A DNA stretch of 64,000 nucleotides, from assembly GCF_964355755.1 (NCBI RefSeq), contig NC_092680.1, forward strand, positions 20,779,045 through 20,843,044, in the 5' to 3' direction. Under the pieces are notes generated by a model. The model was not told where the DNA came from and searched no databases. It worked only from the letters and a program-made list of their open reading frames with translations. The position numbers were made by a program, and so were the translations under genes. The number at the start of each line of letters is the position of its first letter. Within the stretch, counting starts at the first letter, position 1. Positions 757 through 35,600 of the stretch are shown here, piece after piece. The stretch comes from Antedon mediterranea (Eukaryota > Animalia > Echinodermata).

Positions 757-3700
757 ATTGTAAACTATATACAGCATGTCTATGGAAAGAGGTAAACAGA
801 ATAATTAAAGCAGTAAACATAAATTGTAAACTATACAGTATGTCTATGGAAAGAGATAAACAGAATAATTAAAGCAGTAAACATACATTGTAAACTATAC
901 AGTATGTCTATGGAAAGAGGTAAACAGAATAATTAAAGCAGTAAACATACATTGTAAACTATACAGTATGTCTATGGAAAGAGATAAACAGAATAATTAA
1001 AGCAAAACATACATTGTAAACTATACAGTATGTCTATGGAAAGAGATAAACAGAATAATTAAAGCAGTAAACATACATTGTAAACTATACAGTATGTCTA
1101 TGGAAAGAGATAAACAGAATAATTAAAGCAGTAAACATACATTGCAAACTATACAGTATGTCTATGGAAAGAGATAAACAGAATAATTAAAGCAGTAAAC
1201 ATACATTGTAAACTATACAGTATGTCTATGGAAAGAGATAAACAGAATAATTAAAGCAGTAAACATACATTGTAAACTATACAGTATGTCTATGGAAAGA
1301 GATAAACAGAATAATTAAAGCAGTAAACATACATTGTAAACTATACAGTATGTCTATGGAAAGAGATAAACAGAATAATTAAAGCAGTAAACATACATTG
1401 TAAACTATACAGTATGTCTATGAAAGAGATAAACAGAATAATTAAAGCAGTAAACATACATTGTAAACTATACAGTATGTCTATGGAAAGAGATAAACAG
1501 AATAATCAAAGCAGTAAACATACATTGTAAACTATACAGAATGTCTATGGAAAGAGATAAACAGAATAATTAAAGCAGTAAACATACATTGTAAACTATA
1601 CAGTATGTCTATGGAAAGAGGTAAACAGAATAATTAAAGCAGTAAACATACATTGTAAACTATACAGTATGTCTATGGAAAGAGATAAACAGAATAATTA
1701 AAGCAGTAAACATACATTGTAAACTATACAGTATGTCTATGGAAAGAGGTAAACAGAATAATTAAAGCAGTAAACATACATTGTAAACTATACAGTATGT
1801 CTATGGAAAGAGGTAAACAGAATAATTAAAGCAGTAAACATACATTGTAAACTATACAGTATGTCTATGGAAAGAGATAAACAGAATAATCAAAGCAGTA
1901 AACATACATTGTAAACTATACAGTATGTCTATGGAAAGAGATAAACAGAATAATTAAAGCAGTAAACATACATTGTAAACTATACAGTATGTCTATGGAA
2001 AGAGATAAACAGAATAATCAAAGCAGTAACCATACATTGTAAACTATACAGTATGTCTATGGAAAGAGATAAACAGAATAATTAAAGCAGTAAACATACA
2101 TTGTAAACTGTACAGTATGTCTATGGAAAGAGATAAACAGAATAATTAAAGCAGTAAACATACATTGTAAACTATACAGTATGTCTATGGAAAGAGATAA
2201 ACAGAATAATCAAAGCAGTAAACATACATTGTAAACTATACAGAATGTCTATGGAAAGAGATAAACAGAATAATTAAAGCAGTAACCATACATTGTAAAC
2301 TATACAGTATGTCTATGGAAAGAGATAAACAGAATAATTAAAGCAGTAAACATACATTGTAAACTATACAGTATGTCTATGGAAAGAGGTAAACAGAATA
2401 ATTAAAGCAGTAACCATACATTGTAAACTGTACAGTATGTCTATGGAAAGAGATAAACAGAATAATTAAAGCAGTAAACATACATTGTAAACTATACAGT
2501 ATGTCTATGAAAGAGATAAACAGAATAATTAAAGCAGTAAACATACATTGTAAACTATACAGTATGTCTATGGAAAGAGATAAACAGAATAATTAAAGCA
2601 GTAAACATACATTGTAAACTATACAGTATGTCTATGGAAAGAGATAAACAGAATAATTAAAGCAGTAAACATACATTGTAAACTATACAGTATGTCTATG
2701 GAAAGAGATAAACAGAATAATTAAAGCAGTAAACATACATTGTAAACTATACAGTATGTCTATGGAAAGAGATAAACAGAATAATTAAAGCAGTAAACAT
2801 ACATTGTAAACTATACAGTATGTCTATGGAAAGAGATAAACAAAATAATTAAAGCAGTAAACATACATTGTAAACTATACAGTATGTCTATGGAAAGAGA
2901 TAAACAGAATAATTAAAGCAGTAAACATACATTGTAAACTGTACAGTATGTCTATGGAAAGAGATAAACAGAATAATTAAAGCAGTAAACATACATTGTA
3001 AACTATACAGTATGTCTATGGAAAGAGATAAACAGAATAATCAAAGCAGTAAACATACATTGTAAACTATACAGAATGTCTATGGAAAGAGATAAACAGA
3101 ATAATTAAAGCAGTAACCATACATTGTAAACTATACAGTATGTCTATGGAAAGAGATAAACAGAATAATTAAAGCAGTAAACATACATTGTAAACTGTAC
3201 AGTATGTCTATGGAAAGAGATAAACAGAATAATATAAGCAGTAAACATACATTGTAAACTATACAGTATGTCTATGGAAAGAGATAAACAGAATAATCAA
3301 AGCAGTAAACATACATTGTAAACTATACAGTACGTCTATGGAAAGAGATAAACAGAATAATTAAAGCAGTTAACATACATTGTAAACTATACAGTACGTC
3401 TATGGAAAGAGGTAAACAGAATAATTAAAGCAGTAAACATACATTGTAAACTGTACAGTATGTCTATGGAAAGAGGTAAACAGAATAATTAAAGCAGTAA
3501 ACATACATTGTAAACTATACAGTATGTCTATGGAAAGAGATAAACAGAATAATCAAAGCAGTAAACATACATTGTAAACTATACAGTATGTCTATGGAAA
3601 GAGATAAACAGAATAATTAAAGCAGTAAACATACATTGTAAACTATACAGTATGTCTATGGAAAGAGATAAACAGAATAATTAAAGCAGTAAACATACAT

Positions 3701-4410
3701 TGTAAACTGTACAGTATGTCTATGGAAAGAGATAAACAGAATAATATAAGCAGTAAACATACATTGTAAACTATACAGAATGTCTATGGAAAGAGATAAA
3801 CAGAATAATTAAAGCAGTAAACATACATTGTAAACTATACAGTATGTCTATGGAAAGAGATAAACAGAATAATTAAAGCAGTAAACATACATTGTAAACT
3901 ATACAGTATGTCTATGGAAAGAGATAAACAGAATAATTAAAGCAGTAAACATACATTGTAAACTATACAGTATGTCTATGGAAAGAGATAAACAGAATAA
4001 TTAAACCAGTAAACATACATTGTAAACTATACAGTACGTCTATGGAAAGAGATAAACAGAATAATCAAAGCAGTAAACATACATTGTAAACTATACAGTA
4101 TGTCTATGGAAAGAGATAAACAGAATAATTAAAGCAGTAAACATACATTGTAAACTATACAGTATGTCTATGGAAAGAGATAAACAGAATAATTAAAGCA
4201 GTAAACATACATTGTAAACTATACAGTATGTCTATGGAAAGAGATAAACAGAATAATTAAAGCAGTAAACATACATTGTAAATAAACTATACAGTATGTC
4301 TATGAAAGAGATAAACAGAATAATTAAAGCAGTAAACATACATTGTAAACTATACAGTAAGTCTATGGAAAGAGAGATACACAGAATAACTAAAGCAGTA
4401 TACATACATT
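757..4410. repeat. 64-bp tandem satellite, ~57 copies
   Basis: Unit CATTGTAAACTATACAGTATGTCTATGGAAAGAGATAAACAGAATAATTAAAGCAGTAAACATA repeats head-to-tail with few substitutions. Confidence 0.97.
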
Positions 4411-10302: not shown

Positions 10303-11600
10303 TTACAATTCTGACATTTCACTGGATGTTGTTTTTGTCTGAGATCCTTCAGATGATTCTGTACAAAGACAAAACAAGAAATTAACATTTTAATAATTTT
10401 AACAAACAATATATTATGACACAAACAATGGAAATAAAATAATAAAATTAGGCCTAGCATAATTATTGAGTAAATACTGGGAAACAGAAAGTTCTACTGC
10501 CAGCAATAGACTGAATTTAATATATAGCATGCAGGCGTCGTGCCATCAGAGAAGAAGATTACGGTAGCTTATTGCCGATTGTTTTAGTGTTTAGTGATGA
10601 ATATATAGCATGCAGGCGTCGTGCCATCAGAGAAGAAGATTACGATAGCTTATTGCCGATTGTTTTAGTGTTTAGTGATGAATATATAGCATGCAGGCGT
10701 CGTGCCATCAGAGAAGAAGATTACGGTAGCTTATTGCCGATTGTTTTAGTGTTTAGTGATGAATATATAGCATGCAGGCGTCGTGCCATCAGAGAAGAAG
10801 ATTACGGTAGCTTATTGCCGATTGTTTTAGTGTTTAGTGATGAATATATAGCATGCAGGCGTCGTGCCATCAGAGAAGAAGATTACGGTAGCTTATTGCC
10901 GATTGTTTTAGTGTTCAGTGATGAATATATAGCATGCAGGCGTCGTGCCATCAGAGAAGAAGATTACGGTAGCTTATTGCCGATTGTTTTAGTGTTCAGT
11001 GATGAATATATAGCATGCAGGCGTCGTGCCATCAGAGAAGAAGATTACGGTAGCTTATTGCCGATTGTTTTAGTGTTCAGTGATGAATATATAGCATGCA
11101 GGCGTCGTGCCATCAGAGAAGAAGATTACGATAGCTTATTGCCGATTGTTTTAGTGTTCAGTGATGAATATATAGCATGCAGGCGTCGTGCCATCAGAGA
11201 AGAAGATTACGATAGCTTATTGCCGATTGTTTTAGTGTTCAGTGATGAATATATAGCATGCAGGCGTCGTGCCATCAGAGAAGAAAATTACGATAGCTTA
11301 TTGCCGATTGTTTTAGTGTTCAGTGATGAATATATAGCATGCAGGCGTCGTGCCATCAGAGAAGAAGATTACGGTAGCTTATTGCCGATTGTTTGTGTTT
11401 AGAATACTGATGATGAAACAATTGAGATTTAATCAAGATGAGTTAATGGTGAAACAAACATGAACTTACCTGTTGCAAAAAGCGCTTGACATGAGCAGTA
11501 TTCATAGCCTTCTTTCTTCCACATGGAACAGAATCCTTTTGCAAACACTTGTCAAGATCAATTAAGTGATGGTGGTCATATACATTACAATTACAACAAT
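10303..11600 (-). pseudogene. Relic 3' end of a paralogous ROCO gene: last COR exon fragment plus a short terminal exon
   Basis: 11470-11600 encodes HLIDLDKCLQKDSVPCGRKKAMNTAHVKRF, matching HLIDLDKCLKNDSVPCGRRTNMNTAHIKRF at 15083-15190, with a GTAAGT donor. 10303-10358 follows an AG and starts AATCATC like the DED exon, reading ESSEGSQTKTTSSEMSEL*. Confidence 0.65.
10519..11395. repeat. 81-bp tandem repeat, ~11 copies
   Basis: ATATATAGCATGCAGGCGTCGTGCCATCAGAGAAGAAGATTACGRTAGCTTATTGCCGATTGTTTTAGTGTTYAGTGATGA; source of the 276-aa repetitive ORF. Confidence 0.95.
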
Positions 11601-11996
11601 CAATTCCCATGAACTTGTATTGCAAACATGCTTAGGCCTAATTTATCTCATAACGATCTCTATGCTTGTCTGAAGTTTGAATGTACTGCTGATAAACTTG
11701 CTATTATTGAATTCCGCGCAGCGGCACTTAATTGTAATTTAAAAAATCAAAACCCCGCAAAATGCTCTGTTGTGCCATCCACTTTTGAAGACGCGTGTGT
11801 GCGCGCGTTGCTGAATCAATTCTTGTTATATAAAGGTATATATATATAAATCGAAGTACTGTTGTAAGTTACAGTAGGCCCTACTTTGTAAAATCTCGAG
11901 TGCGCAGGGCTATTTATAAGAACAAGCATACCCAAGTTTCTTTTGATGATTCACCTGCTTGTGTGTTATAATATTATAGGGAGAAATACGTGTGTA

Positions 11997-12745: not shown

Positions 12746-13302
12746 AAATAACCTATAGTTACAATACCAACTGTCAATTACCAAATAACCTATAGATACA
12801 ATACCAACTGTCAATTACCAAATAACCTATAGTTAAAATACCAACTGTCAATTACCAAATAACCTATAGATACAATACCAACTGTCAATTACCAAATAAC
12901 CTATAGATAAAATACCAACTGTCAATTACCAAATAAGCTATAGATAAAATACCAACTGTCAATTACCAAATAACCTATAGATACAATACCAACTGTCAAT
13001 TACCAAATAACCTATAGTTAAAATACCAACTGTCAATTACCAAATAACCTATAGATACAATACCAACTGTCAATTACCAAATAACCTATAGTTACAATAC
13101 CAACTGTCAATTACCAAATAACCTATAGATAAAATACCAACTGTCAATTACCAAATAACCTATAGTTACAATACCAACTGTCAATTACCAAATAACCTAT
13201 AGTTACAATACCAACTGTCAATTACCAAATAACCTATAGTTACAATACCAACTGTCAATTACCAAATAACCTATAGATACAATACCAACTGTCAATTACC
13301 AA
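12746..13302. repeat. 37-bp tandem repeat, ~15 copies
   Basis: AAATAACCTATAGWTAMAATACCAACTGTCAATTACC head-to-tail. Confidence 0.95.
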
Positions 13303-13616: not shown

Positions 13617-16600
13617 CTATTCTAACTTTTCTGCAGCAACAGTCATATTATTCTTTTTCAAATGTTCGATAAATGACAGCAACCTGTCTTCCCTTAGGAT
13701 GCCTCTCTGTTCAAGATCTAGAATCACAATCCACTGGTTTTCACGTTGTTTCCTAGAAACATTATTTAGATGGATGAGCGTTGTTACATTGTCTTGGGAA
13801 AGCGTATTGCCGAAATCTATCAACTTCTGTCGGTACGTTGTAACAGTTGTTACATGATGATCGGATTCATCGAACGCGTTCTTCAGATATTTGTTATCCT
13901 CAAGAGCACCTTTGGTACCGGTGACATTGATGATATCGATAAGAACTTTAAAGTTGGTTACGTGAAGATGACCAGCCTTTTTCAATAAATTAAACAACTC
14001 CATGGTGGTGTCAGCCTTCTGTAGAGCATTGTAAGGCGTTATCAGATCTTTGCACAACACCTTCAGCATATCAAGTGAGTCATGCTCATCATACCAATTC
14101 GATACTTGTACCAACATTGTTTGAAATTTCTCCTTTGATGATTCTTTAAAAAAGCAATGAATAAGTAAAAACACAATATTTTTTCTAAAATATAATAGTT
14201 AATTATATCTCAACCGTAATAGTAATAGTAAATAATAATTGTTGACTATTTTTTATTTTTTAAAGGTATTCAGTTAAAATATATACAATAATTATGTACA
14301 ATATGTATTATATGGATGGAAATTAGAAGAAAATAATATTAAATGTCTGGTGTTTTTAAATTTTCTTTTTAATAACACATGTATATTGCACCAATAATAT
14401 TAATGCTCAGTATATCACTGGGTGGTTTAGAGTTTCTTATATGCCTATTAATATATAAATATAAACATAGTTACCTCCAAATGCCCTTGACAAAGACTCT
14501 GACACTGACTCTGGCTGTAACATTGGCTCTGGCTCTGACACTGACTCTGGCTGTAACATTGGCTCTGGCTCTGACACTGACTCTGGCTGTAACATTGGCT
14601 CTGACACTGACTCTGGCTGTAACATTGGCTCTGACTCTGACACTGACTCTGGCTGTAACATTGGCTCTGGCTCTGACACTGACTCTGGCTGTAACATTGG
14701 CTCTGGCTCTGACACTGACTCTGGCTGTAACATTGGCTCTGACTCTGACACTGACTCTGGCTGTAACATTGGCTCTGACTCTGACACTGACTCTGGCTGT
14801 AACAGTGGCTCTGGCTCTGACACTGACTCTGGCTGTAACATTAGCTCTGGCTCTGACACTGACTCTGGCTGTAACATTGGCTCTGGCTCTGACACTGACT
14901 CTGGCTGTAACATTGGCTCTGGCTCTGACACTGACTGTAACATTGGCTCTGAAGTTGGATTTGAATAATTATAATAAGTAAATATAAGAATATGTAAAAA
15001 AAGGAAAGAAAATTGCATAATATAATAATGACAATAATTATGATGAAGTAATTTGTATGACAACGAGCAAGTACAGACTTACCGGTCAAAAAAAATCGCT
15101 TGATATGAGCAGTATTCATATTCGTCCTTCTTCCACATGGAACAGAATCATTTTTCAAACACTTGTCAAGATCAATTAAGTGATACTCTTTTGGGTTACA
15201 AGCAGTGCATAACACACGTAGATTGTAGCCAATGCCCTCGTAGATATTGCAAACAGTTTTCAGTTGCTCCTTTAAATAGCTTAGTACCTAAAACATAAGA
15301 TTGATGTGTTTACAGTATTTATAGATTTATATTACATATTACAGGATAAGTTTGTACATAACACATAGATTGTAGCCAATGCCCTCATATATATTACAAA
15401 TAGTTCTCAGTTGCTCCTTTAAATAGCTTAGTACCTAAAACAAAGATTGATGTGTTTACAGTATTTATATGACAGGATAAGTGGATTACCTCCATGCAAA
15501 CACTTGGTTCTGGTTTAAATATCAACTTGGTTTTTTTTCCATCACCTACTATAGACTGCACAACTTCAGTCCTGCGCAATATTTCAAGCTGCCAAAAAAC
15601 AAAATGTATTCATTAACAAATGTAATAGCCCATCCTCTGATTTTATACTCTATACACATTTGAACATATTTGCATGGTAGGGGCATGGTGATCAGATTAA
15701 AATGTTATATATACTATTGTTACCTAAATGTTATGCTTTTTCTTTAAATAAAAATGTTATAGAACAAATAGTAATCAAATTCATACCTTTAATGCATGTG
15801 GTTTTTCCTTTTCATGGTAAATTCTGACAGAGCCTAAACTGACAGTGTGATTACTAAATTTGAAATCACTACGATTACGGAACACTTCTGAATCATCACT
15901 ACCCTTTTCAGTCATCAATTCCAGGAATGCAACAACCAACGTGTTGTACACAGCATCAGGAAGAAAGTCTGTCGGAGTCAGATAAATTGATACCGTTTGT
16001 GTGTCATCTGCTTTGACTTTCAGAAAGTCTTTTTTGTCAACTTTCATTCGGCAGGGAACCAGGAATACCCGATTACCTTCTTCAATTCCCTGTTAATTTA
16101 AACATCACAATTACACATAAATTGGTATAAGTGATTAGTAAGAGCTTAATCAAAGAAACGATTAAAAGTTTATAGTTATTTACCAACCTTTGTCTTCTCA
16201 AAGAGCAAACGAAAAACTTTCATCAATTCTACAAAGACATCAAAGAGATCTTCATCTTCGTTTCTCCACAAATAACATAGTAACTTTTCCTCAAGAACTC
16301 CTTCATTACTAAGCTTTTCCCATAGCATCTGTAATTGCTTCCGATCTTCTGCTTTCTTCTGTGTACAAAACACACAGTAAAATAGATGTTATAGACCTAC
16401 TGATGAGTTAAAGCAACCAATATAATACCAAGTTTCAAAAACTACATTAAACAGGGTCATATTATTTTACTCATGTGAAATCTAGTATAATATATAATAT
16501 TCCATGCCTATATATACCTACCACTTTAATAGTTGGTGTAACTACTGTGATAACTTTTGTCAAAATTTTAATCATCCAGAGAAGATTTGTTATCACAATG

Positions 16601-19600
16601 TTTCTTAATTTCTCATTAGTGCCGGTATACAAGATTATTCCAGTGTCATTCAGATACATTATCACAGTGGTGAGTACATGTTTGGATATATTACATTGAG
16701 TTGCTATCTCAGATACCTTTAAAACACAAATGACATTTTAATAAAATGCTATTATACTAAATTATCTGACAAACAAATTTAGCATTAGTAAATACAGTAA
16801 CAATGTTTTCTCCCAACTACAAGTCATATTATGCTTACATCAGGGAGTCTTATTTTACAACTAACTGGCTTCCATTAACTATTTGGGAATCTATTCGTTT
16901 TCATTTATTCGTTTATTCGTTTTGTTTATTCAATAAATATTCTCCACATATATTAAAAATACATACGAATAATACATATAAATAATAATAAAAAGTGAAG
17001 TACAGAGAGATTAGCCTATAGGAAGGTTAGCCTATACAAAGAGTCAAGTTTACTGTTTTGAATACATTGTTTTACATGACACTATAATGACAGCTGTTTT
17101 TAATGTGTATATTATTTTTGATCTGTATTTAATTGGATTTGTGTTGTTGTAGAAAAATGTTTTTGTGTTGAAAACCAAATTCAAACCTTACCTCAGTTAA
17201 GGTAATGCTTAATCTTGTTTTTCCAATTATTTGCAACTTTTCCTGTAACTCAACCCACTTTACAGGAACTTTTCTCACCATTTCCTTCATATGTCTACCA
17301 ACGTTTCTCTTAAGTTTTATAATGCCTTCATGTGACTTTACAGTGTTATCCACCATGTACATTTCACGATCTACATGCTTGGCATACGGCATTCCTTTCA
17401 TTGCATCAAACATCTGCATGAACATCTCCTCAGCCTTTATTTGACGAAATTGTATAATCATAAATTTACTAAATAATAAAATATGTTTGTTTTCTATCTT
17501 ATACTACAAATCTGTTGAGCATATTGCAGGTTTAGTTTTGTTGAATAGTTATATAAATGTATACTACAGTTATTACCTTCATCTGCTTTTCTAATTTTGT
17601 GCCTGACAATTTGTCCATATGGGTAGCAACCAAACAGATAGGAGGTGACTCTATGCTTTTGTCATCAACAAAAACGGGGTTTCCTGAACCATGTTGTAAC
17701 ACAGTATGTTCATAAATAGACCTTACCCAGAAAAAATTCATGTCCAAATTAGTCATACCAAGCGATTCCTGAAATCAAATATGAATAATCAAAAAAGGAT
17801 ATTGAAATTACAATTTAACTCATTTGTATTAAACAAAATTGCTAAATAATACATTTTACTTACTATTGTTGAATCTCGTGGATTAGCTAGTTCATTCAAG
17901 TTGTCCATGACATTAAATGTAACACAGTATGATACTTTATTTGTGAGGAAAAACTGAAAAAAGTTAAGGGACCATTTACCTTTTCTTTATCTTAATTCCT
18001 TATTGTAATATTTACCTGATTCGTTATAACTATCTGTGGATGTCATAATGGTAAAAATGGTTAAATTTGTTTGGTTTTTTAGTCAGTACCATGAGAAAAT
18101 TGTGCACATATGCAGTAATTTAATTTAATAACTGAATTTTATAATAAATTTCTAAAAATGCCGACATTTTTAGAAAGAAATGTCACTGATATCAGATACA
18201 CCGTACTAGTCTACAATATTACATTATATCGAATAGTAATATAGTGGTAGTACTTTACAGAATAAGTAATTACGTATTCTTTAAAAAAAGCTTTCATGTA
18301 CAAAACATACTTATTCAGGTGAAGGTTAGAATAATATATAAATGCATAAAGTTTGTAAAAATGGTATTTGGGTAAGAGAACACAGATTTACTCTGGTGGT
18401 CCTCCATAAATTTAACTTATAGGCTTACATTGTTTGTTACTACTTTCTATTTAGGTCTAGAATAAATTATAATAACGGAAGTGAACAGATGCAATTACTT
18501 GTATCTATATTAATACCCAAATAAGAAAAATCTAGTTTTAAATTCCAAAATTTCTCTTATGAATGTAATAAAAATGCCCCAAAATAAACATACCCTGTGT
18601 GTTATGTAGTAGTCTAGTTGACCAGCATAGTCCCATATACTAGTTATGTCACTCACATTTGCTTTTTCTTTTCCAATTATTTTCATCCAAATATTCAAAA
18701 GTTGACCCACAATTGTTGTATCATTGCTTTCTAAAACAAAAATTATAATATTTGTCTTTAATTAAAGACTGTGTGTATATGAAACCCACAAAATAGATTG
18801 ATCAATCTGTGTTGTAAATCTGCAGATGATTTTAGAATGATTTTTTAATTCAGTAGTCTGTGCCTACCTTTCCCTAATTTCTTATCCACATTTTCTGCTA
18901 ATGCATGTGCACGTACTTTCTTGGATAACTCAACACCTTTACAAAGCAAGACAAAAAAGCATGATCATAGACAGAGTGGTTACGAGTTAGAGAAAGAAAT
19001 ACAAATAGTAGGACCTACATTTAAAATAGAAATAAATAATTCATTCCTTTTAAACTTTGATGTAATGGGGTGCAAATTTATGGAATTGGTGCAATATTTC
19101 TAAAGACTTCATAATTTAAAAATAGAAAATATTTTAATTAAATTTAATGTAGAGTATATACATACACATTCTTTCTAACATTGTTCAATCTGTCTGTCTT
19201 TATACTATGTATGTAACTGAACAATGCTTTTTTTATTTGTTAAAGTTACGAGAGTTTGTTTGATGCTGACTCACCATCTACATCTGTCACTTCGTTCCAC
19301 GTACTACAATCCTCCGTTGTTGCTTGAAAAACTGTAGTTGTTACGATACCATCTGTTGATGGCTCTCTGGAATTAAACCTATTATAATAATGTATGGTAA
19401 AGTGAAACATTATCATGATTTTAAAATAATCAAGACATATATTATTTACTGAAAAAACAGAAACTGTATAAATAATAAATTAAATAATCATTGTATAGTT
19501 TACTTTTGTAGAACTATATGCATTTAATAGTAAAAAAATCATCTAAAAATTCAATTAAATCTTCAATTCAACAGGAAATAATGTTTATTTGAATAAACAA

Positions 19601-22600
19601 ACAGGCTTTCTATCAAAGTACTATCATTACTCATAGCGGTTATTTTTTACCTTTCACCAAGCATAGCCTTTACACAACTAGTCTTGCCAGCACCCTCTTT
19701 CCCAAGAAACATACATCTTGAATTCACAACTGAAATCTCACCATTTTGAAGCTCATCTTTGTATATTTTAATAGCATCTTTACCCTTGGAATATACTTCT
19801 GCTGGAACTAATAATTCTAATATAAAAATATCAATATAACATTTTGAAAATTTCAAATTTGAAATTCACTTTTTTATTCACACATAACATCAGCATACAA
19901 GATTAACATCTAAATCTAAATTATTTATCAATGTCTATTAATAGACATTGATAAATAATTTAATTGTTGTTTTAATATTTTTTATGTATTGTTCCGCAAA
20001 ACATGAAAAATGAAGATTGATAAAAAGCCATTATGTAGTTTTAATCAAGTTATTTCCTGAACAGTCACAATGACATCCCACAGACAATTTGACTTTGAAT
20101 AAATTTCAAATACTGTAAATGATTGCGTTCTTCGGTTACATTTTTGGTCAAAGTAAATAACTACCATATTTACCATTGGAATATACTGCTGGAACTAATA
20201 AATCTAATATTTATATCATTATCAAATTTAAAACCATGTCAAATAATGTTTTATTGTTCATAAAGAACCTCTTACAAGATAAAAATATAAACTTACTGTC
20301 AAAGTAGATTGCAATCTTGTTTTTTTCTTTTTCACTGATGTATGCATTTTTTTCTAAAATATTCACTGGTGTGTTTCCTTCCTATAAACAATTAATTAAT
20401 ATTTTAGTTTAGTATTAAGAAATAATATGAATTGATATTGGCTACTGAGCGGTACATAATCCAGACACCCATATCAAAAACAATCAAAAATCACTATTCT
20501 GTAGTGTATTCTAATAATGTGTAAAAGAGAAACTGCTAGTATGGTTGATATACAGACCCTACACCATTAAACCAATGGTGATTTCATGCTATCTCAAAGT
20601 CAGATTAAATAGCAAACTCCTTTATTGTATTTATTTATTATTAATATTAGTAATAGTAAAGCAATTTTACAAATGAATAACCATTTCAAAACTCATATTA
20701 TCAATTTTTTATAAATATATTGGTATCTTTATCTTTATAAAAACATAGTGGTAAGGTTGTTAGGCACCCTTTCCAAATCTATTCGTGGTACAACCAAAAT
20801 TTCCATATCTCTTCACACTACAATTAAGTTGTAAGTATGGGTGTGTGGAATTTAGTTCTTTCTTTTCTATTGGAAAGGAAATCGGCAAGCCATTGCATGA
20901 TACAACCATACAAAAGTAAGAAGTCTACTGTATAAAGGCAATGCGATGCGATGAGTGAAATAATCAATTTATGGTACATTTTTATATATTTTATGGTGTA
21001 AATTATGTTATTTGCTTTTTGTTGTTATTATATTACAAATAGTTAAAGACTAAAAGTAGAACAGAAAAAATCTTTATATAATTATAATAATTATGAAGTT
21101 TTAAAAAAAACTAGATAAAAGATTTTTCTGACACATTAATAATTATACATTTTACTCTGTTAGGTTTACAATATATACTATATATTATTCATATTATGAT
21201 ATTATACCATTCTCAATGCAGTAATTAATCCTAATTACAGTATTTTTAATGATAAACTAGACACAAAAAGTGATTAATTGATTATCATTATCATGAGTGA
21301 GAAAAAAAATATGGTTACAGTTACTGTAACCATATTTTATAGTAAGTATACTGTATGTATTATTCAGATAATTATATGACTAGAATTGACTGGCCAAAAC
21401 GCCTCAGATGCTATCTCCGGCCGTCTAGAAAAAAAATTTTGGACCCGGACCCCCCTAGACGATTATTTTCTCATATCGGCCCCCTCTTTATCAAAATCCT
21501 ATATGGATAACAGCTATATAACAACCAATAAATGTATAGCAAAACACATCTCATCACAAATGGTAAAGTATACTGTGTGTATTCTCTTGCAACTTAATCC
21601 TGTAGTAAATTTGTTGCAGTTAAGTTCATTATAATTTACATCATTGTCTACGTTTGTTACAGTATCTTATAGTAATTTATACAATCTTATGAATCGTTAT
21701 ACCTAGTCTTAAAAATAATTGCATTTTGAAATGAGTAAATTATTTCTTTTTTGTTAATCCAATACAAGAAAACAAATAAGTATGTAATAAGTATGTGTAA
21801 ATGTGTGTATGTATAGTGTCATACAGTAATTGTGTATTATTGTAAATAAAACAATTACCTTATTTTGCAATGACAATGATGCACCATGCTGTTGTATGAG
21901 GAATTCCACTATTTCCAAGGTACAATATCTATTACTCACATACAAATGAAGTGGAGTGTCTCCATCCTTGATAAACAAAATCGTAATCATAAGTTCAATA
22001 ATATTGATAACAGCTATATAAGTAATTGATAAGTGCTAAATAGACAACCAATAAATGTATAGCAAAACACATCTCATCACAAATGGTAAAGTATACTGTG
22101 TGTATTCTCTTGCAACTTAATCCTGTAGTAAATTTTTTTTTTTTTTTTTTTTTTTTAACCATATTTAATGAGGGTGATCCATCCAGCTGTTGCTGATCAT
22201 TAGGGACCCTCAGAGGTTCACAAGACAAACATATACACAAGATGCTCTACATAAACAAAGTCTTATTACAAGTCTTTGGGAGTGGGGTAATTTGGTCCTT
22301 AGAAAAAATCCTGACATGTGACGGGACTTGAACCCAGGATCATTGGAGTGGTAGACAAGCATCATAACCACCAAGCCACAACTCCACTGTTGCAGTTTAA
22401 ATTCATTATAATTTACATCATTGTCTACCTTTGTTACAGTATCTTTACATAGTAATTTATACAATCTTATGAATAATTGTTATACCTAGTCTTGAAAATA
22501 ATTTCATTTTGAAATGAGTAAATTATTTCTTTTTTGTTAATCCAATACAAGAAAACAAATAAGTATGTAATAAGTATGTGTAAATGTGTGTATGTACTGT

Positions 22601-24580
22601 CATACAGTAATTGTGTTTTATTGTAAATAAAACAATTACCTTATTTTGCAATGACAATGATGCACCATGCTGTTGTATGAGGAATTCCACTATTTCCAAG
22701 GTACAATATCTATTACTCACATACAAATGAAGTGGAGTGTCTCCATACTTGATAAACAAAATCATAATCATAAGTTCAATAATATTAATAACAGCTATAT
22801 AAGTAATTGATAAGTGCTAAATAGACAACCAATAAATGTATAGCAAAACACATCTCATCACAAATGGTAAAGTATACTGTGTGTATTCTCTTGCAACTTA
22901 ATCCAGTAGTAAATTTGTTGCAGTTAAGTTCATTATAATTTACATCATCATTGTCTACCTTTGTTACAGTATCTTTACATAGTAATTTATGCAATCTTAT
23001 GAATTGTTATACTTAGTCGTGAAAATAATTTCATTTTGAAATGAGTAAATTATTTCTTTTTTGTTGATCCAATACAAGAAAACAAATAAGTATGTAATAA
23101 GTATGTGTAAATGTGTGTATGTACTGTCATACAGTAAGTGTATAATAGTGAAAAAAATTACCTTATTTTGCAATAATAGTGATTTACCATCGTGTACGAG
23201 GCATGCTATCAATATTTCTGAGGTAGGTTCTGTATCATACAACGACAAATACAAATGAAGTGGAGTGTTTCCATCCTTGATGAACAAAATCATAATCATA
23301 AGTTCAATAATATTGATAACAGCTATATAAGTAATTGATAAGTGCTAAATAGACAACCAATAAATGTATAGCAAAACACATCTCATCACAAATGGTAAAG
23401 TATACTGTGTGTATTCTCTTGCAACTTAATCCTGTAGTAAATTTGTTGCAGTTAAGTTCATTATAATTTACGTCATTGTCTACCTTTGTTACAGTATCTT
23501 TACATAGTAATTTATGCAATCTTATGAATTGTTATACTTAGTCTTGAAAATAATTTAATTTTGAAATGAGTAAATTATTTCTTTTTTGTTAATCCAATAC
23601 AAGAAAACAAATAAGTATGTAATAAGTATGTGTAAATGTGTGTATGTACTGTCATACAGTAATTGTGTATTATTGTAAATAAAACAATTACCTGATTTTG
23701 CAATGACAATGATGCACTATGCTGTTGTATGAGGAATTCCACTATTTCCAAGGTACAATGTTCATACCACAAATACAAATGAAGTGGAGTGTCTCCATTC
23801 TTGATAAACAAAATCATAATCATAAGTTCAATAATATTGATAACAGCTATATTAGTAATTGATAAGTGCTAAATAGACAACCAATAAATCTATAGCATAG
23901 CGTCATTTCATACAAGTGTTTTTTGTAAAAAGGAAACGTTCTCTGTAAATCTAAACTATGCATAATGTATGATTCTTTTTATATACCTCATCAGTAGTTT
24001 TTAAAATATCTGGATGTTCCCTGCAAATGCGTTCAATTTTCTTCAAGTCCCCATTACGCATAGCTTGTTTCAACTCGTACCTGTCAAAATGCAAGAAATA
24101 ATGCATTACTGTATTACCAGAGATTTGATGAGAATAACAGTTCATTATAATAATATTTATAATTTTATAAGAAAATCGTACCCTAGTGTTTTTTTAAAAT
24201 TTTAATCTTGTAAATAATTATGTATGTTTACACTTAATTCAGCCAAGGATGTTTTTCAGGCACAGCCATAAATAAAATTATAAACACAAAAGAAGGAAAC
24301 CATTAAAAATATAATAATGTAGGTTAGTAAACTCATTTTACATTGTTTTTCAATTATTATACTTCTTATACATTTCAGAATGAATATCTAGATGGTGGAT
24401 TTATAATAAAATTTAAAAATCCGTCCGTTTCACTTATTCTGATTAGTATAAAATGAAATTCAAGTTTAATTATTTCTATATTTTTTAATGTTAGTGTATA
24501 CATCGAGTCTGCTTGATTTGAATTAAAAAATAAAAACAAAATAAAACAACATACCTAGTATACCACAGAATTGAAGACAT
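13617..24580 (-). CDS. ROCO-family protein: ankyrin repeats, Roc GTPase, COR, Pro/Glu/Ser linker, tandem DED-like domains (multi-exon)
   Basis: Phase-compatible GT-AG exons (approx.): 24555-24580 (MSSILWYT), 23987-24080; ANK 23692-23799, 23162-23275, 22640-22747, 21859-21966; 20297-20381; Roc 19651-19816 (VPAEVYSKG..GKEGAGKTS P-loop), 19275-19378 (STDGI), 18868-18936, 18594-18730 (WDYAGQ), 17864-17953, 17577-17768 (LVATHMD); COR 17192-17434, 16520-16716, 16188-16358, 15787-16089, 15490-15588, 15083-15287; linker 14475-14948; last exon 13617-14143 with two DED-like helical units and TAG. Confidence 0.88.
14475..14948 (-). repeat. Coding minisatellite exon, 36/30-bp unit (PESVSEPEPMLQ)n, ~13 copies
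   Basis: 474 nt between TTCAG and G|GTAAC, phase 1-1, open in frame with the flanking ROCO exons. Confidence 0.75.
21385..21505. mobile_element. Fragment of a DNA-transposon/MITE end at the edge of the ankyrin cassette array
   Basis: GC-rich island AAAACGCCTCAGATGCTATCTCC...GGACCCCCCTAGAC...CCCCCTCTTTATCAAAATCCT resembling common non-autonomous element termini. Confidence 0.4.
21505..23897 (-). repeat. Tandem array of ~500-528-bp exon+intron cassettes, each carrying one ankyrin-repeat exon (4 exons)
   Basis: Marker ATAACAGCTATAT recurs at ~21507, 22007, 22788, 23316 and 23840; intronic parts are near-identical. Confidence 0.95.
22133..22387 (-). mobile_element. Young tRNA-derived SINE with poly(A) tail
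   Basis: Minus strand has A box TGGCTTGGTGG, B box GGTTCAAGTCC and a ~25-nt pure A tail. Absent from sister cassettes, whose empty site is GTAAATTTGTTGCAG. Confidence 0.85.
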
Positions 24581-24984
24581 ACTGCATCTACATTTACCTT
24601 TAATCGTGTGTCAATGACTAGAAAAAAAAAATAGGAAAGACAAGGTGAACATTTAATCTCTTCTGATAAAACTCTTTTTTTAACTCTTTTCTTTTTCTGA
24701 TTTTCTCTCTGAATATATTCTTCTCTGGGTACTTTTTAGGCATCAGTTTCAGGGTTCAAATTGTTTTACTTTATAATCAATTATTTTTTATTATCAATAA
24801 CACTAATTGTTTAGGGTTACTGATTATTAGTTTTTGCTAGATTGACCACATAAATAAATATTAACAAATAACTTTTGTCATAGGCCTACTGAATCAAACC
24901 AAAAAGCAATACAATAACTACTACTGTCTGTAAGTAACCTTTAGTATGGTACAAAAGAGGTACTATATATCCTTTCGTCTAAAT

Positions 24985-25158
24985 GCCAATTTACACAGAC
25001 GAGTGGTAACGGTAATAAAAATATAGAATCTTTGTTATTCCTTTTGATCATTTACCACAACGCGGAGTGGACGGGCGGTTTCCGTTCAGGATATATTATA
25101 CGTTGGACAAGCTACGCGGTTTTCCGTTTACCGTCACCGTTTGTCTGTGTAAATTGGC
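24985..25158. mobile_element. MITE, PIF/Harbinger-like
   Basis: TIR GCCAATTTACACAGAC / GTCTGTGTAAATTGGC in TAA/TTA context, ~400 bp upstream of the ROCO ATG. Confidence 0.75.
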
Positions 25159-26643
25159 CTTAATAGTACTCGATACTGAAATAGTGTATCGGACTCTTGT
25201 TAACAAACAATAGGCCTGTATTACCATCGTGTAAAGAATGACTGTACTGGTATTTGAAAAAATGTACCAACAATTTAACTACTATTATGCAACAGAAAAA
25301 CTTACATATAATTACTGCACTTTCAGTAAAACTGTGTTACTTTTAAAAACTATTATTTTATACTTACATAACCACTGTTCAGGTAGAAACATTTACATAA
25401 TAGTCATGGCGACAGAACCCGTCTCCTGGTGTTACTGATGAACTTTAGACTTTACTTTGGCTACAGTAAACTTTTATCTTAGGTAAAGATAAATAAAACA
25501 TATTGTCTACAACTATAAACACCATGTTTACAAAACTTGAGGACTCAAGTTTTTATGTAATTCACACATACAATTTTTTACCTTGCCTGATCACCTGAGG
25601 GTACAGTTATAATGTACAAAAAACCTAATGATAAAAAATCTGTTTTTGTCAAATTTGTCATTTATACCATCTTTAAACAAGACCCTATTTCATTTCTTCT
25701 GCTGTAAAAAAAGATTTTTATTAGCATTAAAAGTGTAAAATAAAAGTAAAGAAATTAAAACATTAAACCATTACAGTATAATGGGAATTTTGTTTAGGAG
25801 GGGATGGGGGATATTTTTTATTTTTGAGGGAGGGGAATAGTTCTTTGAAGAGAGTTTTTGTTTGTTATTGTAGGCCTAATGCACACATAATAATCAATAA
25901 TAATGACTACAAATACAATTAATATCAAGTGATAAAATACAGTAACAATTTTATTGTAAAGTTATAGATAATCTACTCATTAATTTCACTGATACAAATA
26001 GAAATGTGTTTTTAACAAATATATTTTGCAGAACATCGAGCTAATAAAGGAATACTGTCCCATACCTGAGGAACACATTAGCAATATTAGCACATTTATA
26101 ATTTAATTCTGGAAGGTACTGTATATAAGATTGTATTATATTAATGCTACAGTTGTTTTGTGTTTTCAATGTAAACTAGTACATAATACATGTAGTTTTA
26201 ACAACTTACAAAAGCCTTTAGAGCAGTCACAATGATAATTTTTTTGTTCCAATTTCTGATTGTGTGAATAAAAATGTAGTAGGTATACAGTAACAACAGA
26301 CTACAAAGGTCTGTTCTTATTACTTTACACAAATATTCAAGAGTACTATAATTCACCATTATTACACTTGCATTGCATTTTCTATCATATGTGGTTCTAT
26401 AAAGTTGTTTTTTTTTGCTTAGATTCGGTCCCCATAAAAATCTTTCTGTTCTTTTGAGATAGGTTTATTGTGTAAGTTGCTTTACCAGTTTATGTTAACA
26501 TGACCTATAGTTGGCACACACACATGCTTGTCTGTTTTATTTTTCTGATAAATCATATCATAGCCTATTCAATTCCAATAAATAGATAGACAGACACTAC
26601 CATGGAATCCATTGTAATCTATTTCATAATAAGAAGTGTAAAT

Positions 26644-32600: not shown

Positions 32601-35600
32601 ATTCAAATATAATTATAATCTTTTCTGTCACCAACGTTACAAAGTTTTTTAAAAGGTCAAAGTTTACAGATAAATAAAATATAAATTATCATTGGTTAGC
32701 GCTTACAGTTTTCGTCTTCTTTCTTCTGTTCGTTTCATTTCAGCTTCCTGCTTCAGTCTAGCACGTTTGGTGGCAGCATCTTGTCGTTTCTTCTTTAATT
32801 CTTCCTGTTCCTCATCTGTAAGAATCTTCCTCTTTCTATGCGGTAAGTCTTTTAATGACAATGATGGTGTGTTCGTACTTCTCCGTGACCTTTCACCTGA
32901 TGTGCTCTGTTCATTTTTCATTATCTTGGCTACGTGGTAAAGTAACATTTTGAATATTTTAATTAACAAATTTGTGTTTTTGTTAATCCTTTATGTACAC
33001 AGCCATGGATTATTAAGAAAGACTGTGTACACCTATCTGTTGAAGATAGAATTGTTTTGATATACAACTAAAAAAATATTTGCACATTTTTCAAGTATGC
33101 TTCAACCCTTATATTTTATTTGACAATCACCATTAACAAACATTAAAAATGATTACCTGCCAACATTTCATCAAAAGCATTGAGGGCAGCAGAGCTGGTT
33201 TCTTTCGAGTAGTCTTTACCTTCAAACATGTACATGTGACTATCTAATATTCAAATGTAAACAACAAACAAGACATTATTAATATAAAACTTAAGAGGCC
33301 AATAATAACTTTATTCAGTCTGTCCTACTACGGTTGCTTGAGGCTGTACTACTGAATTGAAGTCAAGTTGTAATTTATTTTTCTCAATTCTACATTAAAT
33401 AATAAATTAATTCCAATACCTTGCGTTTGGAAATCCTCACATGAGTCACTTATCAACTCAGCATCATCTTGGGCAGCGTCTAAATCCTCGTTACTCATCT
33501 TCCATTCTCCATCTACACTTGGTCCCAGTATTCTCTCAAGATCAATTCCGTTTGTCTGTTCTTCTTCAAGGAGTTTATCAAGTCCAAACTTAAGCATTTC
33601 AGACAGCTAAAAAAAAACCATGTTTTACATTTGTTATAAATTCTCACTAAAAAAAAAAATAAAACAAAAGAAATGAATTTAACATAAAAATTCAATGGGC
33701 TCAGAACTACAACCACCACCAGGAAATAGATTTTGGTCCTAAAAAATAATTTTTATATAATTAGTCATAACTAACACACCTGTTGTGGAGTTTCTGATGT
33801 ACCATTCTTGGTGCCTAAGGAGAATTGACCGCCCTCTATCACCGAAATGGTTAGCTTAAGCTTAGCATCTGCCCTTCGTAAAATCACTTCCTCAACTGAA
33901 TCTTTTCCAATTAAACGAATAATCTTTACTGGCCTTAAAAAACAAAATAAACAAGTTGTGATTAACAATAAAAACAAAAGTTTAGAATTTAGCTATTAGA
34001 AACAGATTACAACTAATGTTTTCAAGAGTGCATTGAAAACCTATCTGCTTTGGTTTTCCACAAGCGCCTTGAGCACTTTGGTGGATATGTACGCCTAACA
34101 AATCCTATTATAATTTCTATGATGTATAAAGAAAAAATAAGATAACTTACCGAGATTGTCCAATTCTATGAGCACGTGCAGAAGCTTGTAGATCATTCTG
34201 TGGGTTAAAATCTGTATCCAAGAATATCACGGTGTCTGCACTAACCAAGTTTAACCCTTGACCTCCAGCTTTAGTACTTAGTAAGAATACAAATGTCTTT
34301 TCATCTCGATTAAAATTCTTAATTGCTAAGAATCGTTCTTCACCTCTCACTGATCCATCAAGTCTTTCGTATGAGTAGCCTAGTGATCACAATAAAGAAA
34401 AATAAAATGTTAACAATACAGTTAGTTCTTCACCTCTCACTGATCCATCAAGTCTTTCATATGAGTAGCCTAGTGAGCACAACAAAGAAACATAAAATGT
34501 TAACAATACAGTTAGTTCTTCACCTCTCACTGATCCATCAAGTCTTTCATATGAGTAGCCTAGTGAGAACAATAAAGAAACACAAAATGTTAACAATACA
34601 GTTAGTTCTTCACCTCTCACTGATCCATCAAGTCTTTCATATGAGTAGCCTAGTGAGCACAATAAAGAAACATCAAATGTCAACAATACAGTTAGTTCTT
34701 TACCTCTCACTGATCCATCAAGTCTTTCATATGAGTAGCCTAGTGAGAACAATAAAGAAACATAAAATGTTAACAATACAGATAGTTCTTCACCTCTCAC
34801 TGATCCATCAAGTCTTTCGTATGAGTAGCCTAGTGAGCACAATAAAGAAACATCAAATGTTAACAATACAGTTAGTTCTTCACCTCTCACTGATCCATCA
34901 AGTCTTTCATATGAGTAGCCTGTGAGAACAATAAAGAAACATCAAATGTTAACAATACAGATAGTTCTTCACCTCTCACTGATCCATCAAGTCTTTCGTA
35001 TGAGTAGCCTAGTGAGCACAATAAAGAAACATCAAATGTTAACAATACAGTTAGTTCTTCACCTCTCACTGATCCATCAAGTCTTTCATATGAGTAGCCT
35101 AGTGAGAACAATAAAGAAACATAACATGTTAACAATACAGTTAGTTCTTCACCTCTCACTAATCCATCAAGTCTTTCATATGAGTAGCCTAGTGAGCACA
35201 ATAAAGATACATAAAATGTTAACAATACAGTTAGTTCTTCACCTCTCACTGATCCATCATGTCTTTCATATGAGTAGCCTAGTGATCACAATAAAGAAAC
35301 ATAGAATGTTAACAATACAGTTAGTTCTTCACCTCTCACTGATCCATCAAGTCTTTCATATGAGTAGCCTAGTGAGAACAATAAAGAAACATAAAATGTT
35401 AACAATACAGTTAGTTCTTCACCTCTCACTGATCCATCAAGTCTTTCATATGAGTAGCCTAGTGAGAACAATAAAGAAACATAGAATGTTAACAATACAG
35501 TTAGTTCTTCACCTCTCACTGATCCATCAAGTCTTTCATATGAGTAGCCTAGTGAGCACAATAAAGAAACATCAAATGTTAACAATACAGTTAGTTCTTC

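What the first reader, a model, noticed from the sequence alone, without database searches (positions are those of the whole stretch)
13617..24580. ANK-Roc-COR-tandem DED architecture: candidate GTPase-switched immune/cell-death receptor
Seen: one continuous splice path joining ankyrin repeats, Roc G1-G4 motifs (GKEGAGKTS, STDG, WDYAGQ, THMD), COR and a terminal exon with two helical units (FQTMLVQVS..LDMLKVLCKDLI..TMELFNLLKKAGHL; YRQKLIDFGNTL..VILDLEQRGILREDRL). Established: these patterns resemble the tandem DEDs of caspase-8/cFLIP. Vertebrate ROCOs (LRRK1/2, MFHAS1, DAPK1) lack tandem DEDs, and DAPK1 has a kinase and a death domain. Inference: NLR-like sensor-switch-effector logic with Roc-COR in place of NACHT. 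I do not know of a characterised protein with this layout, though death-fold ROCOs are reported in invertebrates.
Basis: partly seen in the sequence, partly recalled or inferred. Interest (0 to 1): 0.85.

Follow-up and report, generated by a model that had tools for sequence, protein, structure and literature searches.

The report
Feather-star Roco GTPase with tandem DEDs
A feather-star gene joins fast-varying ankyrin repeats, a GTP-binding switch of the LRRK2 type and a caspase-8-like pair of death effector domains; it belongs to an expanded family with swappable ends and is likely, though untested, an intracellular immune or cell-death receptor.

Summary
My own 21-exon GT-AG model (minus strand, 24580-13617, 1205 aa) is letter for letter RefSeq XP_071964214.1 of the crinoid Antedon mediterranea. 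Order: four ankyrin repeats, Roc with G1-G5 intact, COR, an acidic repeat linker, tandem DED. The last exon folds as a tandem DED (pLDDT 92; Z 17.5 to caspase-8, best death domain 8.6). It lacks the caspase-8 DED2 phenylalanine and the RxDL motifs, so binding to caspase-8 or FADD is not assured. RNA contigs show spliced transcripts of the family; the COR-to-DED junction itself was not seen in RNA. The gene belongs to a crinoid expansion (37 proteins seen, 2 species) whose COR cores end in tandem DED, HEPN, death domain or a second Roc-COR. Each ankyrin repeat is one phase-0 exon in a tandem unit; exons differ more than their introns. Best reading: an intracellular sensor-switch-adaptor receptor (about 0.55), function untested. 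The concept is in print: bacterial AP-GTPase conflict systems, brown-algal ROCOs, Trichoplax death-fold ROCOs, sponge Roc-COR-DED rows. I found no paper on this exact layout or expansion. New variant of a known kind.

The parts
24555..24580 (-). exon 1, start codon (aa 1-8)
   Evidence: matches P0001
23987..24080 (-). exon 2, N-terminal capping helices of the ankyrin stack (aa 9-40)
23692..23799 (-). ankyrin exon A1, 108 nt, phase 0-0
   Evidence: Pfam Ank 30.6 bits
23162..23275 (-). ankyrin exon A2, 114 nt, phase 0-0; divergent exon inside near-identical introns
   Evidence: Pfam Ank weak, E 0.042; 31/108 nt differ from A4 against 16/343 in flanking introns
22640..22747 (-). ankyrin exon A3, 108 nt, phase 0-0
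   Evidence: Pfam Ank 34.7 bits
21859..21966 (-). ankyrin exon A4, 108 nt, phase 0-0; 1 nt from A3
   Evidence: Pfam Ank 35.5 bits
21503..23918 (-). genomic array of four exon-plus-intron units, 88-96% identical in pairwise alignments
   Evidence: self-blastn
20297..20381 (-). exon 7, C-terminal cap of the ankyrin stack (aa 187-214)
17192..19816 (-). exons 8-14: Roc GTPase; G1 in exon 8, G2 exon 9, G3 exon 11, G4 exon 13, G5 exon 14; start of COR
   Evidence: intron 11 seen spliced in RNA-like contigs
15083..16716 (-). exons 15-19: COR-A and COR-B, ending in a Cys/His motif seen in the family alignment; phase-1 donor at 15083
   Evidence: Pfam COR-A 62.2 bits; COR-B weak, E 0.058; fold match to CtRoco and LRRK1/2
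14475..14948 (-). exon 20: acidic 12-aa-repeat linker (36-nt minisatellite), phase 1-1, possibly skipped
13617..14143 (-). exon 21: tandem DED (DED1 about aa 1033-1123, DED2 about 1131-1205) and stop
11461..11631 (-). orphan partial copy of the last COR exon downstream of the gene
   Evidence: 91% over 94 nt to 15091-15184; tblastn

Best explanation
The gene encodes an ankyrin-Roc-COR-tandem-DED protein that likely works as an intracellular immune or danger receptor: the variable ankyrin stack would bind a ligand, the Roc-COR unit would change its GTP-dependent monomer-dimer state, and the tethered DED pair would then recruit other DED proteins to start cell death or immune signalling. Shown here: gene structure, domain identity and order, intact G motifs, the tandem-DED fold, the family expansion, different C-terminal modules on close COR cores (as annotated), and faster divergence of the sensor region. 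Inferred: ligand sensing, GTP hydrolysis and dimer cycling (by analogy with CtRoco), release or clustering of the DEDs through the flexible linker, and the partner. Likely partners are a crinoid caspase-8-like protease, FADD, or the family's own second-type tandem DEDs (for example ZU5-tDED protein P0035).
For: Fold: AF2 pLDDT 92.3, pTM 0.88, 12 helices in two bundles. The first 26 Foldseek rows shown are all caspase-8, cFLIP or vFLIP DED pairs, TM 0.5-0.74, though none reaches E 0.001. VIA Z 17.5, rmsd 2.5, 165 aligned to caspase-8 tDED, against 8.6 for the best death domain, 7.6 PYD, 6.5 CARD-bearing chain. Switch: G1-G5 all present in P0001; ANK-Roc-COR model pLDDT 80, top hits LRRK1, LRRK2, CtRoco at E 4.5e-14 to 1.8e-13. 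Expansion: all 27 Roc-COR hits and all 15 tDED-profile hits are crinoid, on four Antedon contigs by length. Effector variety: of 16 Anneissia proteins, 5 carry tDED, 3 HEPN_DZIP3, 1 a death domain, 7 nothing detected; of 21 Antedon proteins, 19 carry a tDED. COR cores 80-83% identical to this one end in tDED-ZU5-tDED, a second tDED type, or a second Roc-COR. Sensor divergence: cap+ANK 48-50% identical to P0003 and P0013, against Roc 73-80%, COR 76-80%, tDED 80%. Exons A1 vs A4: 10 nt differences, all amino-acid changing, 7 within 15 nt (permutation p 0.0008) at the end of the first helix and the turn. Precedent: Kaur 2021, Zambounis 2012, Dyrka 2014 (passages).
Against: No functional data. DED2 has H-L where caspase-8 has F122-L123, DED1 has V-L for F-L, and neither DED shows RxDL; the DED2 FL motif is needed for caspase-8 chains (PMC3477315 passages). 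The nonsynonymous excess is not significant against synonymous sites (p 0.09 for A1/A4, p 0.20 for A2/A4), so gene conversion without selection is not excluded. Across 14 repeats, columns 29-30 vary as much as columns 11-16. The COR-to-DED junction was not seen in RNA, and the RNA pieces differ from the window by up to about 10%, so they may come from paralogs or the second organism. Paralog architectures are automated models in repetitive clusters and may be truncated or fused (P0036 looks fused). No crinoid caspase-8 or FADD was examined.
Confidence: 0.55

Rival explanations
1. It is a FLIP-like brake or decoy: the same sensor and switch, but the DED pair caps DED chains instead of starting them, because its DED1 pocket can accept a partner while DED2 cannot extend the chain.
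For: No caspase domain follows the DEDs. DED2 lacks the F of the FL motif in all 24 tDED copies printed for that position. Loss of that motif blocks chain growth but not recruitment in caspase-8. Atlas rank 2 is a v-FLIP-like cluster; cFLIP and vFLIP are among the top fold hits.
Against: Caspase-8 outranks FLIPs in sequence and fold. Sister genes carry HEPN at the same position, a domain class treated as an RNase effector in Kaur 2021, which fits an activating slot. Crinoid partners may have co-evolved other surfaces.
Confidence: 0.17
2. It is a non-immune ROCO scaffold for trafficking, cytoskeleton, development or regeneration, as with LRRK1/2 or DAPK1; the expansion and exon differences come from unequal crossing-over and gene conversion without selection.
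For: Characterised ROCOs have such roles (PMC4104024, PMC6337361 passages). Atlas neighbours are ANK-Roc 'DAPK1-like' clusters in molluscs, sponges and arthropods. The selection tests against synonymous sites are not significant. The window is rich in tandem repeats.
Against: Housekeeping scaffolds are usually few and conserved (my general knowledge). Here at least 37 proteins in two species show swapped effectors and a faster-evolving sensor part.
Confidence: 0.17
3. The full fusion is a prediction artefact, or this copy is decaying: the DED exon is not spliced to COR in this locus, or the locus is silent and the RNA signal comes from paralogs.
For: Junction not seen in RNA; the linker exon has a weak acceptor and low contig depth. 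Broken exon copies lie in and beside the gene.
Against: 20 of 20 introns are canonical with an unbroken frame over 1205 aa. The DED exon has a strong phase-1 acceptor (9.0, above the 95th background percentile 7.2) and the COR donor scores 8.6. COR followed by tDED recurs in two species and on several supported branches. Skipping the linker keeps the fusion in frame.
Confidence: 0.08

Closest known systems
Sponge Roc-COR/DED proteins listed in Kaur et al. [quoted passage not shown]
   Same: Kinase-less Roc-COR with ankyrin and/or a death-fold module; DED directly after COR in one case; placed among lineage-expanded predicted immune proteins.
   Different: Those rows list a single DED with TRADD-N, or death domains. 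Here there is a C-terminal tandem DED, no TRADD-N or caspase detected by Pfam, and an N-terminal exon-per-repeat ankyrin array.
Prokaryotic AP-GTPase (Roc)-COR counter-invader proteins (Kaur 2021, passages)
   Same: Same order: variable repeat sensor, Roc-COR, variable C-terminal effector.
   Different: LRR sensors and at least 24 bacterial effector types; not animal, no tandem DED named in the passage read.
Trichoplax ROCO repertoire (Civiero 2014, PMC4104024, passages and Fig. 1 legend)
   Same: Expanded kinase-less animal ROCOs carrying death-fold domains.
   Different: CARD and death domains with TPR or LRR; 'DED', 'death effector' and 'ankyrin' occur 0 times in that text.
Ectocarpus LRR-ROCO candidate immune receptors (Zambounis 2012, PMC3341825, passages) and fungal NLR ankyrin repeats (Dyrka 2014, PMC4986451, passages)
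   Same: One repeat per phase-0 exon in a ROCO gene (Ectocarpus); near-identical repeats with variable positions (both).
   Different: LRR rather than ankyrin in algae, NACHT rather than Roc in fungi. Positive selection was shown there, not here. No spare intronic ankyrin exons were found in this window.
Caspase-8, cFLIP and vFLIP tandem DEDs
   Same: Same two-domain fold, Z 12.5-17.5 over 155-169 residues, 14-22% identity.
   Different: Here C-terminal, no caspase domain, DED2 FL is HL, no RxDL.
DAPK1 and LRRK1/2
   Same: Ankyrin repeats upstream of Roc-COR; Roc-COR fold matches LRRK1/2. DAPK1's C-terminal death domain is from the listing and recall.
   Different: No kinase, LRR or WD40 found by Pfam; tandem DED instead of a death domain.

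Membership tests
ROCO proteins | Roc GTPase domain with G1-G5 motifs | tested here: met
   Pfam Roc above cut-off; motifs at 253, 276, 360, 449, 493; profile hits CtRoco at E 2.7e-11
ROCO proteins | COR directly after Roc | tested here: met
   COR-A 524-683; fold hits include the isolated COR 3dpt, target TM 0.71
ROCO proteins | GTP binding, hydrolysis, nucleotide-dependent dimer cycle | not testable with these tools
   needs biochemistry; CtRoco behaviour from PMC6337361 passages
Tandem-DED proteins (caspase-8/10, FLIP) | two packed six-helix DEDs | tested here: met
   halves match FADD DED (Z 11.2, 3-94) and PEA-15 DED (Z 10.2, 100-174)
Tandem-DED proteins (caspase-8/10, FLIP) | exposed FL motif in DED2 | tested here: not met
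   aligns to H-L (profile alignment to 4zbw)
Tandem-DED proteins (caspase-8/10, FLIP) | E/D-RxDL charge triad | tested here: not met
   no RxDL in the last helix of either DED; motif described in PMC4558505 passages
Tandem-DED proteins (caspase-8/10, FLIP) | binding to FADD/caspase-8 DEDs, filament formation | not tested
   no crinoid partner in hand; no complex prediction was obtained
NLR / STAND receptors | NACHT or NB-ARC ATPase | tested here: not met
   no such Pfam family at E 0.01; the NTPase is Roc
NLR / STAND receptors | N-terminal effector, C-terminal repeats | tested here: not met
   order is reversed
DAPK1 / LRRK orthologues | kinase domain | tested here: not met
   none in Pfam scan of P0001
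Exon-shuffled, diversifying ROCO receptors (Ectocarpus type) | one repeat per phase-0 exon in tandem units | tested here: met
   four phase 0-0 exons of 108/114 nt
Exon-shuffled, diversifying ROCO receptors (Ectocarpus type) | positive selection on ligand-facing residues | tested here: inconclusive
   clustered nonsynonymous changes, p 0.0008 for clustering, p 0.019 against introns, p 0.09 against synonymous sites

The most novel reading that the evidence does not exclude
Feather stars have built a second, Roco-based repertoire of intracellular immune receptors: ankyrin sensor cassettes diversify exon by exon inside homogenised introns, effector exons are swapped at a phase-1 boundary after COR (tandem DEDs of several types, HEPN RNase, death domain), and the tandem-DED members trigger caspase-8-type death directly, a GTPase-switched death complex without death receptor or FADD.
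Probability: 0.3. Interest if true: 0.75.

Novelty: new variant of a known kind. Interest (0 to 1): 0.5.

Why it matters
Roc-COR proteins have long been proposed as immune switches in algae, simple animals and bacteria, but no such animal receptor with a death-fold output is characterised in the papers I read. This gene puts the switch of LRRK2 next to a read-out that is easy to assay: DED assembly and caspase activation. If it works as inferred, it would show a GTPase doing the job of an NLR's ATPase in a deuterostome and give a kinase-free system for testing how the Roco monomer-dimer cycle drives output. If the DED pair is a brake, it would be a ligand-switched FLIP. As it stands it is an annotated but uncharacterised protein whose parts and logic have precedents.

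Tried and rejected
No whole genome is held for this window, so copy number and partners in the genome could not be counted. No listed run is on record as RNA; X8 is a guessed RNA run and X9 behaved like one. Depth of contigs cannot rank exons, so low depth over the linker exon is a hint only. RNA evidence rests on one laying; the COR-to-DED junction stays open. Single-sequence and 7-sequence searches of PDB sequences found no DED; only the more diverse profiles did. The 1.84-billion-protein HMMER search never ran, so the range outside crinoids is not settled: the word-index searches that returned only crinoids scored at most about 8000 candidates and miss distant relatives. NCBIfam gave only below-cut-off ankyrin matches. 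No alternative effector exon or spare ankyrin exon was found in the window. Rejected: death domain, CARD or PYD identity of the last exon; NLR membership; a dead GTPase. Literature: 10 searches; none listed a paper on a Roc-COR tandem-DED protein or a crinoid ROCO expansion; searches were mostly noise. PMC6321704, PMC10643122, PMC11463336, PMC9334734, PMC5094078 and PMC7159879 (passages) name no Roc-COR-DED protein in the passages seen. Subscription papers, figures, file 13 and the cut part of file 4 of the Kaur 2021 supplements were not seen and may bear on novelty.
Full report
Gene. Reading the minus strand, I built a 21-exon model from 24580 to 13617. All 20 introns are GT-AG; the frame is unbroken for 1205 aa. 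A search with the last exon returned a 100% match, P0001, named by the source as XP_071964214.1, uncharacterised protein of Antedon mediterranea. It equals my model at 1205 of 1205 positions. This is agreement between two predictions from the same DNA.

Domains. Pfam on P0001 gives ankyrin repeats, Roc, COR-A above their cut-offs and DED just below. On single exons, 3 of 4 ankyrin exons and the last exon (DED, 41.2 bits) pass. G1-G5 are intact. An AF2 model of residues 1-872 (pLDDT 80, pTM 0.67) matches LRRK1, LRRK2 and Chlorobium Roco.

The last exon is a tandem DED. The model has pLDDT 92.3 with 12 helices. Foldseek lists 26 rows of caspase-8, cFLIP and vFLIP DED pairs before any unrelated fold, with weak E-values of 0.001-0.12. 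VIA gives Z 17.5 over 165 residues to caspase-8, well above death domains, PYD and CARD. The Atlas's top three clusters are DED proteins. A nine-sequence profile finds caspase-8 at E 9e-6. In that alignment DED1's FL is VL, DED2's F122-L123 is H-L, and RxDL is absent. Since the DED2 FL motif drives caspase-8 chain growth (PMC3477315, passages), this pair should not be assumed to polymerise like caspase-8.

Expression. Nine runs hold part of the stretch, none on record as RNA. In the four runs laid, X8 and X9 show the joint 17953-18594 with CT..AC ends, which is intron 11, in 4 and 3 contigs; X1 and X5 do not. Several X8 and X9 contigs stop matching at exon edges (for example 16522-16713, 17576-17767). 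They differ from the window by up to about 10%, so they show spliced transcripts of the family and not surely of this locus. Only 15 of 250 joints were printed; the COR-to-DED joints are not among them. The splice sites favour the fusion: COR donor 8.6, DED acceptor 9.0, both above the 95th background percentile; the linker exon acceptor is poor (-4.1), but that exon is phase 1-1.

Family. The Roc-COR search gave 27 proteins, all from Antedon mediterranea or Anneissia japonica. With other calls the set is 37 proteins, some of them isoforms or near-duplicates. A tDED profile hits 24 of 37 (9 were used to build it; 2 hits are partial) and misses 13. Three Anneissia members end in HEPN_DZIP3, one in a death domain; Antedon P0013 has a second Roc-COR, P0002 has tDED-ZU5-tDED. 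In a tree of 26 COR cores from 25 proteins (12 of the 37 left out as short or redundant), this tDED type sits on several supported branches in both species, and the nearest three CORs (80-83% identical) end in three different modules. I read this as effector swapping on an ancestral COR-tDED layout; I did not run a clade test, and the paralog models are automated.

Sensor. Each ankyrin repeat is one phase-0 exon within a tandem exon-intron unit. A3 and A4 differ by 1 nt. A1 and A4 differ by 10 nt, all amino-acid changing, 7 of them within 15 nt (p 0.0008); this exceeds intron divergence (16/346, p 0.019) but not significantly the synonymous rate (p 0.09). A2 differs from A4 at 31 of 108 nt plus a 6-nt insertion while the flanking introns differ at 16 of 343 (p 9e-11); synonymous sites are raised too, which points to exon-limited exchange or intron homogenisation. 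The variable patch lies at the end of the first helix and the following turn, next to the surface that Dyrka 2014 describes as the binding face. Among 14 repeats from 4 proteins (my pattern missed A2 and some others), columns 11-16 and 29-30 are the most variable. The cap+ankyrin part is 48-50% identical to P0003 and P0013, the rest 73-80%.

Mechanism. Most likely the ankyrin stack senses, Roc-COR switches, and the DED pair recruits DED partners. CtRoco is monomeric with GTP and dimeric without nucleotide (PMC6337361, passages), so a switch here would at simplest bring two DED pairs together or free them. Echinoderm FADD exists and activates NF-kB in human cells (PMC7016406, abstract; sea cucumber, not crinoid). 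All of these steps are inferred. Rivals are a FLIP-like brake, a non-immune scaffold, and a model artefact.

Known versus new. The protein is a member of the ROCO family and carries a structurally true but non-canonical tandem DED. It is not an NLR; it may work like one, with reversed domain order. Repeat-Roc-COR-effector logic is described for bacteria (PMC8195603, passages), brown algae (PMC3341825, passages) and Trichoplax (PMC4104024, passages). Supplementary rows of PMC8195603 list sponge proteins with COR+DED and with Ankyrin+APGTPase+COR+Death. Kinase-less ANK-Roc look-alikes cluster in molluscs, sponges and arthropods. Ten paper searches listed nothing on this exact layout or on the crinoid expansion. 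The range outside crinoids is untested with a sensitive search.

Verdict. Real gene, correct architecture, plausible but untested receptor. New variant of a known kind; interest 0.5.

Noticed in passing
window 11461-11631 (-): Orphan partial copy of the last COR exon, 2 kb past the stop codon, ending in a GT donor; likely a remnant of another family copy.
   Followed up: partly
window 15354-15469 and 20162-20291 (-): Broken partial duplicates of exon 19 (92% identical) and exon 8 (72%) inside introns of the gene.
   Followed up: partly
window 22216-22388: A very high-copy interspersed element sits in the ankyrin array between exons A3 and A4 (depth and loose ends); another lies at about 24980-25161 just upstream of the gene.
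   Followed up: no
window 47718-49310 (+): Intronless 530-aa RING, coiled-coil, NHL-repeat (TRIM-NHL-like) ORF, lying opposite the minus-strand genes around it.
   Followed up: partly
window 37813-38094 (-): Exon of an SNF2-family helicase (Pfam E 1.4e-11); by recall it looks CHD1L-like, spread over about 27-44 kb.
   Followed up: partly
window 757-4410, 10519-11394, 12746-13302, 34323-36538: Long minisatellites (periods 64, 81, 37; a further one read from ORFs) that give spurious long ORFs.
   Followed up: no
P0013 (Antedon, 1681 aa): ANK-Roc-COR followed by a second, divergent Roc-COR and a hydrophobic C-terminus; a double-Roco protein or a fused model.
   Followed up: partly
P0002 and P0035 (Antedon): ZU5 followed by a second tandem-DED type; P0035 has no Roc-COR and could be the family's adaptor. 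These second-type DEDs are missed by Pfam.
   Followed up: partly
P0018, P0022, P0024 (Anneissia): Roc-COR with one or two HEPN_DZIP3 domains at the C-terminus, on separate branches of the COR tree.
   Followed up: partly
window 15083-15287 (-), aa 831-855: Cys-x2-Cys...His...Cys...Cys motif at the end of COR, recurring in the family sequences; may bind zinc.
   Followed up: no
window 19917-19962: Perfect 46-nt palindrome in intron 7.
   Followed up: no
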